64,000 bases of DNA from a phage. The notes under the pieces are model-generated. The model ran no database searches and was not told the DNA's origin. It saw nothing but the letters and a program-made list of their open reading frames with translations. Where the stretch lies: sequence record PZ534512.1; one strand, written 5' to 3'. Shown here one piece after another: positions 48,851 to 52,597 of this stretch; the first letter of the stretch is position 1, and each line of letters opens with the position of its first letter. The translations under genes and the position numbers were made by a program.

Positions 48851-49213
48851 ATGAAAGCATATCAAATTCTTGAAGGCACACATAAAGGTACTATTTATTT
48901 TGAAGATGGTATTCAAGCACGAATTATTGTCTCTAAAACCTTTAAAGAGGACTCTTTTGTAGACCCAGAAATTTTCTATGGTTTGCATGCCCGTGAAATT
49001 GAAATTGAGCAACAGCCTACAGTTAAAATTGAAGGTGGTCAACACCTGAACGTTAACGTTCTGCGTCGCGAAACTTTGGAAGATGCAGTTAAGCATCCGG
49101 AAAAATATCCGCAGCTGACCATCCGTGTATCCGGTTATGCAGTTCGCTTTAACTCTCTGACTCCGGAACAGCAGCGCGACGTTATCGCTCGTACCTTTAC
49201 TGAGAGTTTGTAA
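48851..49213 (+). CDS. autonomous glycyl radical cofactor (GrcA/YfiD-like), 120 aa
   Basis: C-terminal glycyl-radical signature [13 protein letters not shown] and flanking sequence ([52 protein letters not shown]) closely resemble E. coli GrcA and the pyruvate formate-lyase C-terminus. Confidence 0.85.
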
Positions 49214-49434
49214 TGGCAAAGATAATTATTGAAGGTTCTAAAGATGTGCTAAATGCTTTCGCCGAGTGGTTTAGTAATTCAGGCGAACAGCAATTTAATG
49301 AAGCCTGGAATATGGGTGATATTGATGGAATTTATCCTACGACAGAAATTTCTGTTCAAGGATATGGCATTCATGAACCTATTCGTTTAGTTGAATATGA
49401 TTTATGTACTGGTGAGGAAGTCAAATATGATTGA
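49213..49434 (+). CDS. hypothetical small protein (73 aa; vs.5 position)
   Basis: ORF; overlapping start/stop with neighbours. Confidence 0.45.
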   Translation: MAKIIIEGSKDVLNAFAEWFSNSGEQQFNEAWNMGDIDGIYPTTEISVQGYGIHEPIRLVEYDLCTGEEVKYD

Positions 49435-49693
49435 AGACATTAAAGGTTATAAGCCGCATACTGAAGAGAAAATCGGTAAAGTGAATGCTATTAAAGACGC
49501 TGAAGTTCGTTTAGGACTTATCTTTGACGCTTTATACGATGAATTCTGGGAAGCACTAGATAATTGTGAAGATGATGAACTCGCGAAGAATTATGCTGAA
49601 AGCCTCGATCAGTTAACTATTGCTAAAACGAAACTCAAAGAAGCCAGTATGTGGGCTTGTCGTGCAGTGTTCCAACCAGAGGAAAAATACTAA
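49427..49693 (+). CDS. small protein at T4 vs.4 position, candidate Acb2-type cyclic-oligonucleotide sponge (88 aa)
   Basis: ATG at 49427 (ORF track starts at a TTG, 49391); gene order regB-vs.3-vs.4 counted back from regB; homology to Acb2 not verifiable here. Confidence 0.45.
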
Positions 49694-50499: not shown

Positions 50500-51045
50500 A
50501 TGAGAAAAGCACTACTCGCTGGTCTATTGGCCATTTCAATGATGGCACATAGCTCCGAGCATACTTTCAGTAATGTCCAACTCGATAACATGCGTTACGC
50601 GTATCAATTCGGGGAACAATTTTCTAAGGATGGAAAATATAAAACACACAAAAATATCCACAAGAGCGGATTAGGTCATATAATGGCTGCCATTTTATGG
50701 CAAGAAAGCTCTGGCGGAGTTAATTTAAAATCTAAACCAAAGCATCACGCCTACGGAATGTTCCAAAATTATTTGCCTACTATGCGAGCAAGAGTTAAGG
50801 AACTTGGTTATAATATGACCGATGCTGAAATAAAAAGAATGTTGAATAAACGGTCCAATTCAGCTTCCTGGGCGTACATTGAACTTTCTTATTGGTTAAA
50901 TATACATAAGGGCGATATAAGAAAAGCAATATCCTCTTATAATTCGGGATGGAATGTTAAAGCAGGTTCTAAATATGCTTCTGAAGTCCTAGAAAAGGCT
51001 AATTACCTTAAAAATAATAAACTTTTGGAAATAGTAAATGACTAA
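50500..51045 (+). CDS. secreted lytic transglycosylase-like protein (vs.1-like), 181 aa
   Basis: N-terminal signal-peptide-like segment (MRKALLAGLLAISMMAHS) and SLT-type motif (WQESSGG...YGMFQ). Confidence 0.65.
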   Translation: MRKALLAGLLAISMMAHSSEHTFSNVQLDNMRYAYQFGEQFSKDGKYKTHKNIHKSGLGHIMAAILWQESSGGVNLKSKPKHHAYGMFQNYLPTMRARVKELGYNMTDAEIKRMLNKRSNSASWAYIELSYWLNIHKGDIRKAISSYNSGWNVKAGSKYASEVLEKANYLKNNKLLEIVND

Positions 51046-51379
51046 AATTTTGGTTTTATGTATAGGATTAATTTCATTTTCTGCGTTAGCAGATACATCA
51101 TATACTGAAATTAGAGAGTATGTAAACCGTACTGCAGCGGATTATTGCGGGAAAAATAAAGCATGCCAAGCTGAATTTGCGCAGAAATTAATATATGCAT
51201 ATAAAGACGGAGAAAGAGATAAATCAAGCAGATACAAAAATGATACATTGTTAAAACGATATGCTAAAAAGTGGAATACCTTAGAATGTTCAGTTGCGGA
51301 GGAGAAAGATAAAGCCGCTTGTCATTCAATGGTTGACCGTTTGGTAGATTCTTATAATCGAGGATTGAGTACTAGATGA
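51038..51379 (+). CDS. hypothetical protein with N-terminal signal peptide (113 aa; T4 vs position)
   Basis: ORF; hydrophobic N-terminus MTKILVLCIGLISFSALA; position only. Confidence 0.45.
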   Translation: MTKILVLCIGLISFSALADTSYTEIREYVNRTAADYCGKNKACQAEFAQKLIYAYKDGERDKSSRYKNDTLLKRYAKKWNTLECSVAEEKDKAACHSMVDRLVDSYNRGLSTR

Positions 51380-51855
51380 TTGTAAAATATATCAAGGGCG
51401 ATATTGTCGCCCTCTTTCTTGAAGGTAATATTATTGCGCACGGGTGCAATTGTTTTCATACAATGGGCAGTGGTGTAGCTGGTCAATTAGCAAGAGCCTA
51501 TCCCAAAATTTTAGAAATAGATAAGACCACAACTGAATATGGTTCGCGTGAAAAACTCGGTGATATGTCTATTGTTTTTAAACATAAACCTAATGGTTTT
51601 GGCATATGTTATAACTTGTATACGCAATACGAACCAGGTCCTAATCTTGATTATGGTGCTTTAGTAAACTGCATGATAGAATTAAATCTACAGGCAGAAA
51701 CCCTTTTGTTTAAACCGGTAATTTACATTCCACGCATAGGTTGTGGTATTGCTGGCGGCGATTGGGATAAGGTTTCTAAATTAATCGACATGTTTACTCC
51801 TGATATTGATTTAATAGTGGTGGATTATGAAAGTGCATTACCCGCATCCGTTTGA
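51376..51855 (+). CDS. macro-domain protein (putative ADP-ribose binding / ADP-ribosyl hydrolase), 159 aa
   Basis: KGDI...AHGCNCFHTMGSGVAGQLARAYP and IPRIGCGIAGGD resemble macro-domain motifs (GDIT...NAAN...GGGGVxGAI; hPxIGTGhxGhP). Confidence 0.6.
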   Translation: MIVKYIKGDIVALFLEGNIIAHGCNCFHTMGSGVAGQLARAYPKILEIDKTTTEYGSREKLGDMSIVFKHKPNGFGICYNLYTQYEPGPNLDYGALVNCMIELNLQAETLLFKPVIYIPRIGCGIAGGDWDKVSKLIDMFTPDIDLIVVDYESALPASV

Positions 51856-52039
51856 TCCTAAAAACAAAGCAGTAATTATTCGTCAATGGGAACGCATTTG
51901 CCGTACTAAATGTCCAATTAATAGTCCACATGATGTAGATAAAGACTACATTGGAACATTCGTTGAATATACCTTTATTGATAAGAAAGGTCGTAAACAA
52001 CATGTAGAAGAATATTGCTTAAAGGTTACATGGTTATGA
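51827..52039 (+). CDS. hypothetical small protein (70 aa)
   Basis: ATG-initiated ORF overlapping the upstream gene end. Confidence 0.4.
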   Translation: MKVHYPHPFDPKNKAVIIRQWERICRTKCPINSPHDVDKDYIGTFVEYTFIDKKGRKQHVEEYCLKVTWL

Positions 52040-52242
52040 GCCAAACTAGTATTCTTAAAAATGCCCACTGTGAAAAGTGTAAGTGGCCTGTTGTTTTTGC
52101 TTTATGTAATGATGAAATGGCTTGTGATTTCGATTATTGGTGCTATTGTTCTAATAAAGGATGCATCAATCATAAAGGTGAAGGATTTTATTCGGGATTT
52201 TATCCTTATCCTGATTTCGTTAAAGAAGGTAAACCAAAATGA
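52030..52242 (+). CDS. hypothetical Cys-rich small protein (about 70 aa)
   Basis: CEKC...C...C...C...C pattern suggests a metal-binding fold; start ATG 52030 or 52036. Confidence 0.4.
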   Translation: MVMSQTSILKNAHCEKCKWPVVFALCNDEMACDFDYWCYCSNKGCINHKGEGFYSGFYPYPDFVKEGKPK

Positions 52243-52415
52243 ATGATGATTTAAAATATCAATTATTACGTGAACTTGATGTTTTGATTGAACTTTCTGC
52301 ACAAAAAGGATTTATAATTGGATCGGGTCAAAAAGACCCCAACGGTCATTCAATCGTAGCGGTTATGAATCAGAAACGAGTCATTTTAAAACTTTTGGGG
52401 ATTGACATACTGTGA
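52239..52415 (+). CDS. hypothetical small protein (58 aa)
   Basis: ATG overlapping the upstream stop; below the ORF-track size threshold. Confidence 0.35.
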   Translation: MNDDLKYQLLRELDVLIELSAQKGFIIGSGQKDPNGHSIVAVMNQKRVILKLLGIDIL

Positions 52416-52597
52416 GCCTAAGCAAAGAACAAAAAGATAAATTGTTTGAGCTTATCCATGAACTTCTAGATGAGCATGCAGAAGCAAACACCTTTTATGA
52501 TGAATACGGCCCGCTATCTCCCGAACAGCAGGAAGAATTTGCTGATCGGTTTGATAAGAAAGAAAATGAATTAATAGCTTATGTGAATACGCTTTAA
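52412..52597 (+). CDS. hypothetical small acidic protein (61 aa)
   Basis: ORF (GTG start overlapping the previous stop) directly upstream of tk. Confidence 0.4.
   Translation: MSLSKEQKDKLFELIHELLDEHAEANTFYDEYGPLSPEQQEEFADRFDKKENELIAYVNTL

What the first reader, a model, noticed from the sequence alone, without database searches (positions are those of the whole stretch)
51376..51855. Macro-domain protein in the tk-vs early cluster
The 159-aa ORF carries macro-domain-like motifs (KGDIVAL...AHGCNCFHTMGSGVAGQLARAYP and IPRIGCGIAGGD). T4-type phages encode ADP-ribosyltransferases (Alt, ModA, ModB), and hosts deploy ADP-ribosylating defences (DarTG) and NAD-derived signalling (Thoeris). A phage macro domain is a plausible eraser or signal-degrading anti-defence factor. 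It sits among small early genes two ORFs downstream of the candidate Acb2-position gene.
Basis: partly seen in the sequence, partly recalled or inferred. Interest (0 to 1): 0.65.

Follow-up and report, generated by a model that had tools for sequence, protein, structure and literature searches.

The report
Phage T4 Tk.4/AdfM macrodomain ortholog
The 159-residue gene is a real macrodomain (ADP-ribose-removing) protein, but it is the counterpart of phage T4 gene tk.4, long annotated as a macro/A1pp domain and shown in 2025 to protect T4 from the DarTG2 DNA-ADP-ribosylating defence, so the finding is correct but not new.

Summary

The window is a T4-type phage (Tequatrovirus). The ORF sits between vs and tk.3, exactly where T4 has tk.4, and is 58% identical to T4 Tk.4 without gaps. 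T4 tk.4 has been called an A1pp/macro gene since 2006. A November 2025 preprint named it adfM: a clean knockout makes T4 sensitive to DarTG2.

What this analysis adds:
- The family has an invariant Gln (Q84) where DarG and TARG1 have their catalytic Lys. This matches SCO6735/Bt_1257, where that Gln is essential for removing ADP-ribose from thymidine in DNA. The family lacks that subclass's long mobile loop and its Lys34.
- It is not a DarG equivalog (28 bits against a 250-bit cut-off).
- The gene is a precise allele swap. Flanking genes are 96-100% identical to T4, this gene 58%, with dN/dS about 0.23.
- The true Acb2 (vs.4) ortholog lies five genes upstream, not two.

Verdict: ordinary and already known.

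The parts
51376..51855 (+). CDS of the 159-aa single-domain macrodomain protein. It is the ortholog (divergent allele) of T4 tk.4 / adfM.
51439..51480 (+). Codons for H22-G-C-N25-C...M30-G-S-G33-V-A35: the conserved His/Asn motif and the first Gly-rich (substrate-binding) loop.
   Evidence: H22, G23, N25, C26, G33 and A35 are invariant in 59 family members. N25 aligns with SCO6735 Asn27 and PhiKZ AdfM N23, both needed for activity. H22 aligns with SCO6735 His24.
51613..51627 (+). Codons for N80-L-Y-T-Q84. Invariant Gln84 occupies the position of the catalytic Lys of DarG (K80) and TARG1 (K84).
   Evidence: phmmer and MAFFT alignments place NLYTQ against DarG NFPTK and Bt_1257 NMIGQ. N80, Y82 and Q84 are invariant in the family and kept as NxY[TS]Q in 74 of 75 bacterial homologs. 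SCO6735 Gln85 is at the same position and essential (PMC9411070).
51730..51765 (+). Codons for P119-R-I-G122-C-G124-I-A-G-G-D-W130: the second Gly-rich (phosphate-binding) loop.
   Evidence: P119, G122, G124 and W130 are invariant. G122 and G124 align with SCO6735 Gly126 and Gly128. A126 sits where TARG1 has its catalytic Asp125; the TARG1 sequence is recalled from memory, so this one mapping is a lead.
51406..51872 (+). Segment in which nucleotide identity to T4 falls from about 100% to about 50-70%: a gene-sized allele replacement.
   Evidence: 30-nt sliding identity on a MAFFT alignment of window and T4. Flanking proteins Vs 99% and Tk.3 96% against Tk.4 58%. dN=0.39, dS=1.67.
51038..51379 (+). 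Upstream gene vs (valyl-tRNA synthetase modifier). Its stop overlaps the macro gene's start (ATGA).
   Evidence: 99% identical to T4 Vs.
51827..52039 (+). Downstream gene tk.3, overlapping the macro gene's last 29 nt.
   Evidence: 96% identical to T4 Tk.3.
49427..49693 (+). Context only: ortholog of T4 vs.4 (Acb2), five genes upstream of the macro gene.
   Evidence: 98% identity to T4 Vs.4. Gene order. Vs.4 = Acb2 is from my own knowledge.

Best explanation
The gene encodes a stand-alone, single-domain macrodomain enzyme. It is the counterpart, in this T4-type phage, of T4 Tk.4 (AdfM).

Proposed mechanism:
- It is most likely transcribed with the regB-vs.1-vs block before DNA replication (inferred from gene order only).
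- The host DarT2 toxin of a DarTG2 defence system attaches ADP-ribose to thymidine in single-stranded phage DNA (TNTC motif), which blocks replication.
- The macrodomain binds the ADP-ribose in its cleft between the two glycine-rich loops (G31-S-G33 and G122-C-G124-I-A-G-G) and hydrolyses the ribose-thymine bond. This releases ADP-ribose and restores the base.
- In effect it acts as an 'orphan antitoxin' with no DarT-binding domain.
- Catalysis would not use the Lys of DarG or TARG1. The family has an invariant Gln84 there, held by Asn25, as in Streptomyces SCO6735. In SCO6735 that Gln positions the distal ribose and an activated water is proposed to do the chemistry.

Shown here: ORF, macro fold, class, orthology and synteny with T4 tk.4, and the conserved active-site residues.
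Taken from the literature: the anti-DarTG2 phenotype of T4 tk.4, and dT-ADPr hydrolysis by Gln-type (SCO6735) and DarG-type (PhiKZ gp104) macrodomains.
Inferred: that this 58%-identical allele has the same activity and substrate, and the expression timing.
For: - Macro fold: Pfam above gathering score; AF2 pLDDT 94.9; Foldseek E down to 2e-10.
- Orthology: same gene order as T4; 58% identity over the full length with no gaps.
- Function of the ortholog: T4 tk.4 was the single Tn-seq hit on DarTG2, and the clean knockout is DarTG2-sensitive.
- Active site: H22, N25, Q84, G122 and G124 are invariant. They map onto SCO6735 His24, Asn27, Gln85, Gly126 and Gly128. N27S, Q85A and G128E reduce or abolish dT-ADPr hydrolysis; H24Y also lost activity but misfolded, so it is uninformative. 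SCO6735 rescues DarT toxicity.
- A phage macrodomain removing DarT2-made ADPr from DNA has been shown biochemically for PhiKZ gp104.
- dN/dS of about 0.23 between the two alleles indicates both are under purifying selection.
Against: - No biochemical assay exists for any member of the Tk.4 family. The T4 preprint only states that enzymatic removal 'seems likely'.
- The DarG/TARG1 catalytic Lys is absent (Q84).
- Two lysines that position DNA in SCO6735 are missing. K34 is S32 here (A in most of the family), and K89 lies in a mobile loop that is 6 residues shorter here than in Bt_1257.
- The protein scores only 28 bits on the NCBIfam DarG model (cut-off 250) and 27.9 bits on PADLOC DarG, against 132.9 bits for PhiKZ gp104.
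- The window allele is only 58% identical to the T4 protein that was tested genetically.
- SCO6735 Q85A also inhibits DarT by binding, so a non-catalytic contribution cannot be excluded.
Confidence: 0.7

Rival explanations
1. The protein protects against DarTG2 mainly by binding and blocking the DarT2 toxin (stoichiometric 'interaction-inhibition'), not by hydrolysing ADP-ribosylated DNA.
For: Catalytically dead SCO6735 (Q85A), DarG (K80A) and TARG1 (K84A) all inhibit DarT in vitro, SCO6735 most strongly (PMC9411070). The T4 genetics do not separate the two modes.
Against: All residues needed for ADP-ribose binding and hydrolysis are invariant across phage and bacterial members. That is not expected for a mere binder. 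There is no DarT-binding second domain; the protein is a 159-aa single domain. Bacterial relatives are not next to DarT, so the family is not co-evolving with one toxin.
Confidence: 0.1
2. Its main substrate is not DNA. It removes ADP-ribose from proteins or RNA (for example Glu/Asp-linked protein ADPr, or RNA ADP-ribosylated by toxins). Or it processes small molecules such as ADP-ribose-1''-phosphate or O-acetyl-ADP-ribose, as the database label 'phosphatase' implies.
For: Sequence and structure are about as close to yeast Poa1p, an ADPr-1''-phosphate phosphatase, as to DarG. Poa1p His23 aligns with invariant H22 (the 3-residue numbering offset was inferred from the names of the PDB mutants). 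SCO6735 and TARG1 also act on protein substrates. Some records label the T4 protein 'Poa1p-like' or 'phosphatase'. Three bacterial homologs sit next to NADAR genes and two next to NAPRTase genes.
Against: The only phenotype known for the T4 ortholog is DarTG2 sensitivity, and the gene is dispensable otherwise. The 'phosphatase' label comes from the old domain name A1pp, not from an assay. CmdTAC, an mRNA ADP-ribosylating system, defends robustly against T-even phages that carry this gene, so the gene evidently does not neutralise that system (abstract of PMC11618068).
Confidence: 0.12
3. It reverses or tunes the phage's own ADP-ribosylation of host proteins by Alt, ModA and ModB.
For: T4-type phages encode these three ADP-ribosyltransferases (own knowledge; Alt is mentioned in PMC9503650). 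Pairing a writer with an eraser is a common arrangement.
Against: Alt, ModA and ModB are arginine-specific (own knowledge). TARG1/ALC1-like macrodomains are known for Glu/Asp esters and thymidine, not arginine. The gene is not adjacent to alt or mod. No growth phenotype was reported for T4 tk.4 without DarTG2.
Confidence: 0.05
4. It degrades or sequesters NAD-derived immune signals, such as Thoeris gcADPR or His-ADPR.
Confidence: 0.03

Closest known systems
T4 Tk.4 = AdfM (anti-DarT factor, macrodomain), bioRxiv 10.1101/2025.11.20.689424
   Same: Same locus between vs and tk.3. Same length class, 159 against 155 aa. 58% identity with no gaps. Identical first 14 residues and identical HGCNCFHTMGSGVAGQL and NLYTQ motifs.
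   Different: It is a deeply diverged allele (dS about 1.7) swapped in as a gene-sized cassette between almost identical flanks. It has a 4-residue longer C-terminus that overlaps tk.3 by 29 nt. T4 has GAGIGKG where the window has GCGIAGG. This allele has not been tested.
Streptomyces coelicolor SCO6735 and Bacteroides Bt_1257 (Gln-type subclass of ALC1/TARG1-like macrodomains; PMC9411070)
   Different: It lacks the extended 'mobile loop' that defines that subclass, being 6 residues shorter than Bt_1257, and so lacks Lys89 and Lys93. Lys34 is replaced by Ser/Ala. Identity to Bt_1257 is only 26-29%.
DarG antitoxin macrodomain of DarTG2 (T. aquaticus, M. tuberculosis; PDB 5M31, 5M3I)
   Different: The catalytic Lys80 (FPTK) is Gln here. 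There is no C-terminal DarT-binding domain and no neighbouring darT. It scores 28 bits against a 250-bit cut-off on the NCBIfam DarG equivalog model.
PhiKZ gp104, also named AdfM (Cell Rep 2026, PMC13309987)
   Same: It is a phage-encoded stand-alone macrodomain that counters DarTG2, and the conserved Asn (N23 there, N25 here) is needed for activity.
   Different: It belongs to a different subfamily. gp104 is a close DarG relative: E=9e-25 to Mtb DarG, an FPTK lysine, and 132.9 bits on PADLOC DarG. The window protein aligns to gp104 only weakly, in two short fragments. The shared name therefore covers two independently recruited macrodomain lineages.
Human TARG1 (OARD1) and yeast Poa1p
   Same: Both are among the top structural matches. 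TARG1 also removes dT-ADPr from DNA (PMC8501950, listed). The Poa1p His23 equivalent is conserved as H22.
   Different: The TARG1 Lys84/Asp125 dyad is Q84/A126 here. Poa1p is a small-molecule phosphatase with a large insertion, and only its N-terminal 80 residues align well by sequence.

Membership tests
Macro domain superfamily (Pfam PF01661) | Profile score above Pfam's gathering threshold over the whole domain | tested here: met
   34.4 bits against 22, E=2.4e-8, profile positions 2-117 of 118.
Macro domain superfamily (Pfam PF01661) | Three-layer alpha/beta/alpha macro fold | tested here: met
Macro domain superfamily (Pfam PF01661) | Conserved Asn after strand 2, plus two glycine-rich loops lining the ADP-ribose cleft | tested here: met
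   N25, G31/G33 and G122/G124 are invariant or nearly so in 59 homologs.
ALC1/TARG1-like class of macrodomains | Closest structural and sequence neighbours are TARG1, DarG, SCO6735/Bt_1257, Poa1p and ALC1, rather than MacroD, viral, PARG or macroH2A types | tested here: met
T4 Tk.4 / AdfM orthologous group | Full-length homology and conserved position between vs and tk.3 | tested here: met
   58% identity over 155 of 155 aligned residues with no gaps. Gene order matches T4 and Sf22.
T4 Tk.4 / AdfM orthologous group | Protects the phage against DarTG2 | not testable with these tools
   Shown only for the T4 allele, by Tn-seq and a clean knockout.
DarG antitoxin (NCBIfam NF048014, PADLOC DarG) | Score above the curated equivalog cut-off | tested here: not met
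   28 bits against a 250-bit cut-off, macro part only. PADLOC DarG gives 27.9 bits, against 132.9 for PhiKZ gp104.
DarG antitoxin (NCBIfam NF048014, PADLOC DarG) | Catalytic lysine (Taq DarG K80, motif FPTK) | tested here: not met
   Gln84 aligns with that lysine in the phmmer and MAFFT alignments. It is invariant in the family.
DarG antitoxin (NCBIfam NF048014, PADLOC DarG) | C-terminal DarT-binding domain and an adjacent darT gene | tested here: not met
   The protein is a 159-aa single domain and its neighbours are vs and tk.3. In 80 bacterial loci encoding homologs, no DarT2 homolog lies in the flanks of up to 4 kb (tblastn, best E=2.2). DarT was not among the 25 commonest neighbour families listed.
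TARG1 | Lys84/Asp125 catalytic dyad | tested here: not met
   Q84, and A126 in GCGIAGG. The K84 position follows from the DarG alignment plus the equivalence stated in PMC9411070. The D125 position was compared with the TARG1 sequence recalled from memory, so that part is a lead.
SCO6735/Bt_1257 subclass (Gln-type ALC1-like) | Gln at the catalytic position, held by the conserved Asn; conserved His and two loop glycines | tested here: met
   Q84 = Gln85, N25 = Asn27, H22 = His24, G122 = Gly126, G124 = Gly128. Mapping is through Bt_1257 and the SCO6735 sequence recovered, the alignment, and the residue roles.
SCO6735/Bt_1257 subclass (Gln-type ALC1-like) | Mobile loop about five residues longer than in DarG/TARG1, carrying Lys89 and Lys93; Lys34 in the first Gly loop | tested here: not met
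   The loop after Q84 is 6 residues shorter than in Bt_1257 and the same length as in DarG. The position of Lys34 is S32, and A in the family consensus.
Poa1p-like ADP-ribose-1''-phosphate phosphatase | Phosphatase activity on ADPr-1''-P; catalytic His23 and Ser30 | tested here: inconclusive
   H22 aligns with Poa1p His23 and T29 with Ser30. This uses the alignment and a numbering offset inferred from the PDB mutant names. The C-terminal half aligns poorly, and the activity cannot be tested here.

The most novel reading that the evidence does not exclude
The two deeply diverged tk.4 alleles circulate at similar frequency among T-even phages and are exchanged as exact gene cassettes. They may not be functionally equivalent. 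The window allele might have a different substrate range, for example ADP-ribose on another base, on RNA or on protein. Or it might evade a host counter-measure aimed at the T4 allele. Separately, the whole Tk.4 family would be a third catalytic solution within the TARG1-like class: a Gln active site without the SCO6735 mobile loop or its DNA-positioning lysines.
Probability: 0.1. Interest if true: 0.5.

Novelty: already known. Interest (0 to 1): 0.25.

Why it matters
This locus adds little that is new. The gene family has been annotated as A1pp/macro since 2006, and the T4 ortholog has a published anti-DarTG2 phenotype.

Three points would be useful to anyone working on AdfM:
- The T4-type AdfM is not a DarG-type enzyme. 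It has Gln instead of the catalytic Lys and is closer to SCO6735/Bt_1257. Mechanistic inferences drawn from DarG should therefore be checked.
- 'AdfM' currently names two separate macrodomain lineages, the T4 type and the PhiKZ type.
- T-even phages carry at least two old alleles of the gene, swapped by recombination at the gene borders. This pattern is typical of genes in an arms race.

Tried and rejected
- DarG membership was tested and rejected: curated model scores, catalytic Lys, domain architecture and neighbourhood.
- I asked whether the phage gene is a captured DarTG2 antitoxin. In 80 bacterial loci encoding homologs, tblastn with P. aeruginosa DarT2 found nothing better than E=2.2 in flanks of up to 4 kb. 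A Pfam scan of 132 neighbouring ORFs found 102 different families with no dominant partner; DarT was not among the 25 commonest listed. The relatives are stand-alone genes in varied contexts. The tblastn used a single DarT2 query, so very divergent DarT proteins could be missed.
- Full SCO6735-subclass membership was rejected because the mobile loop and Lys34 are missing.
- A literature search for a link between a T4 macrodomain and CmdTAC found none. The Poa1p structure paper is not in the library, so Poa1p residue roles rest on PDB entry titles only.
It was repeated without that sequence.
- Two literature queries failed on the three-character term limit.
- The promoter scan gave fewer sigma-70-like sites than shuffled sequence (10 against a mean of 14.8). 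Expression timing is therefore inferred from gene order only.

Full report
**Observation.** Both quoted motifs are present. The start codon overlaps the stop of the upstream gene (ATGA). A GAGGA lies 11 nt upstream. The last 29 nt overlap the next gene. All ORFs in the region are on the same strand and tightly packed, which suggests one transcription unit.

**Identity of the region.** A 4.5-kb stretch around the ORF is 98-99% identical to many Tequatrovirus genomes, including Ge15, AdolfPortmann and Sf22. The annotated order in Sf22 and T4 is vs.8 ... vs.4, vs.3, regB, vs.1, vs, tk.4, tk.3 ... tk, rI.1, rI. The window + strand is the transcribed strand of this block.
- The ORF occupies the tk.4 position and is 58% identical to T4 Tk.4 over 155 residues without a gap.
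- The RefSeq T4 record calls Tk.4 a 'phosphatase; contains A1pp phosphatase motif'.
- The Sf22 record notes 'macro domain-containing protein, pfam01661'.
- Other records say 'Poa1p-like family protein' or 'macro domain-containing protein'.
- A 2006 comparative paper already reported the A1pp match for tk.4 orthologs (PMC1524935).

**Is it a macrodomain?** Yes.
- Pfam Macro scores 34.4 bits (gathering 22, E=2.4e-8) over essentially the whole profile.
- PHROG 335 gives E=2.5e-71.
- PDB sequence hits are Bt_1257 (8e-11), Poa1p (2e-9), SCO6735, M. tuberculosis DarG (1e-5) and TARG1 (7e-3).
- An AlphaFold2 model built on 59 homologs has mean pLDDT 94.9 and pTM 0.89.
- Foldseek against the PDB returns TARG1, Poa1p, Bt_1257, DarG and SCO6735 first.

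The protein therefore belongs to the TARG1/ALC1-like class.

**What is already known about function.** A bioRxiv preprint of 20 Nov 2025 (10.1101/2025.11.20.689424) screened a saturated T4 transposon library on a DarTG2 host.
- It found tk.4 as the single significant hit.
- It confirmed that a clean knockout becomes DarTG2-sensitive, and renamed the gene adfM.
- The authors infer, but do not show, enzymatic removal of ADP-ribose from DNA.
- Earlier work had shown that T4 lacking adfA and adfN is still DarTG2-resistant and predicted a further factor (PMC11825919).

Independently, PhiKZ gp104 was also named AdfM (PMC13309987). It was shown to remove DarT2-made ADP-ribose from a TNTC oligonucleotide, and an N23A mutant had reduced activity. 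Phage macrodomains in general were surveyed in 2022, when 41% of myoviruses were found to carry one (PMC9503650).

**Active site and subfamily.** In 59 homologs the invariant residues are G8, H22, G23, N25, C26, G33, A35, N80, Y82, Q84, P119, G122, G124 and W130.
- Pairwise phmmer and a MAFFT alignment place N80-L-Y-T-Q84 against DarG N-F-P-T-K and Bt_1257 N-M-I-G-Q. The catalytic Lys of DarG (K80) and TARG1 (K84) is therefore an invariant Gln here.
- This is the situation described for SCO6735. Its Gln85 is 'equivalent to the catalytically important lysine'. Q85A abolishes activity, and Asn27 holds the Gln in place. The enzyme efficiently cleaves thymidine-linked ADP-ribose from DNA and rescues DarT toxicity (PMC9411070).
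- Using the SCO6735 sequence recovered, the mapping is His24=H22, Asn27=N25, Gln85=Q84, Gly126=G122 and Gly128=G124.
- Two features do not carry over. Lys34 is S32 (A in the family consensus). The mobile loop with Lys89 and Lys93, said to define the SCO6735/Bt_1257 subclass, is 6 residues shorter here than in Bt_1257 and has the DarG length.
- On curated DarG models the protein scores 28 bits (cut-off 250) and 27.9 bits, whereas PhiKZ gp104 scores 132.9. gp104 matches Mtb DarG at E=9e-25 and keeps the FPTK lysine.

The T4-type and PhiKZ-type 'AdfM' proteins are therefore different lineages of the same class.

**Origin.**
- A scan of one genome per bacterial species found at least 504 loci encoding relatives, at 34-43% identity among the 80 loci kept.
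- In the 75 loci where the gene could be delimited, it is a stand-alone ORF of median 154 aa.
- The NxY[TS]Q motif is kept in 74 of those 75.
- No DarT2 homolog lies in the flanks of up to 4 kb.
- The 132 neighbouring ORFs fall into 102 Pfam families with none dominant. NADAR appears three times and NAPRTase twice.

The phage gene thus looks like a recruited member of a widespread stand-alone macrodomain family, not a truncated DarG antitoxin.

**Allele structure.**
- Against T4, the flanking proteins are nearly identical: Vs.6 98%, Vs.4 98%, Vs.3 97%, RegB 99%, Vs.1 100%, Vs 99%, Tk.3 96%, Tk 99%, rI.1 100%. Tk.4 is 58%.
- At the DNA level, identity is 100% up to 51405. It falls to about 30-80% per 30-nt window from 51406 to about 51872, then returns to 97-100%.
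- Between the two alleles dN is 0.39 and dS is 1.67, a ratio of about 0.23. Both are old, selected genes exchanged as a cassette.
- In the phage collection the window-type allele (>=95% identity) is in 268 records. The T4-type is in 221, plus 159 at 80-90%.
- Two nearby spots are also replaced: vs.5 (33% identity) and the tk.1-tk.2 interval.

**Mechanism proposed.** The protein is made from the regB-vs.1-vs-tk.4 block. It binds ADP-ribose attached by DarT2 to thymidine in single-stranded phage DNA and hydrolyses the glycosidic bond using the Asn25/Gln84 arrangement. This restores replicable DNA.

The fold, class, orthology and residue conservation are shown here. The phenotype and the chemistry are taken from the T4, SCO6735 and PhiKZ papers. 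The transfer to this allele is inference. Confidence is 0.7.

The rivals are toxin binding, other substrates including the 'phosphatase' reading, reversal of Alt/Mod modifications, and Thoeris signal degradation. They are scored in their own section.

**Verdict.** Interest is low (0.25). The residual value lies in the Gln-for-Lys active site, the distinction between the two 'AdfM' lineages, and the cassette-like allele exchange.

Noticed in passing
window 51395-51413 (+), inside codons 7-13 of the macro gene: A perfect 8-bp GC-rich hairpin (AGGGCGAT-ATT-GTCGCCCT) is followed by a T-rich run and scored as terminator-like on both strands. It is identical in T4, and the divergent cassette begins right after it. 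Some public records (DalCa, ECML-123-2) annotate a 'terminator' at this spot. The fold z-score for the 71-nt context is only -2.0.
   Followed up: partly
window 49427-49693 (+): This is the ortholog of T4 vs.4 (Acb2, the anti-CBASS sponge; that identity is from my own knowledge), 98% identical to T4. It lies five genes upstream of the macro gene. The ORF listing extends it to a TTG at 49391, but the T4-equivalent start is the ATG at 49427.
   Followed up: partly
window 49213-49434 (+) and 52015-52597 (+): Two further replacement spots relative to T4 sit in an otherwise 96-100% identical block. vs.5 is only 33% identical and longer (73 against 58 aa). The tk.1-tk.2 interval holds three small ORFs, of which only the last resembles T4 Tk.2 (52%). 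The first (52030-52242) is Cys-rich (CEKC...C...C..C.C...C), suggesting a zinc-binding protein.
   Followed up: no
L003-L082 (bacterial loci encoding homologs): Stand-alone homologs of about 150 aa with an NAYTQ motif are widespread, for example in Ruegeria and other Rhodobacterales, Desulfobacterales, Verrucomicrobia, Planctomycetota and Hyphomicrobiaceae. Three have a NADAR-domain neighbour and two a nicotinate phosphoribosyltransferase neighbour, hinting at NAD/ADP-ribose gene clusters. Several Hyphomicrobiaceae and Ruegeria loci have a conserved upstream ORF of about 1000-1290 aa that was left out of the Pfam scan.
   Followed up: partly
L001 (Sf22 RefSeq NC_042039) and L002 (T4 RefSeq NC_000866): There are annotation slips in public records. 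The Sf22 macro gene is noted as 'similar to phage T4 Tk.2' when it should be Tk.4. T4 tk.3 carries the product name 'Tk.2 conserved hypothetical protein'. T4 mobD.4 and Sf22 MobD.5 are named 'molybdopterin-guanine dinucleotide biosynthesis protein MobD', apparently from a gene-name collision.
   Followed up: no
literature: The name AdfM was given independently to two different macrodomain lineages: T4 Tk.4 (Gln-type, Bt_1257/SCO6735-like) and PhiKZ gp104 (Lys-type, close to DarG). The Cell Reports paper states that no macrodomain Adf had been reported before it.
   Followed up: yes
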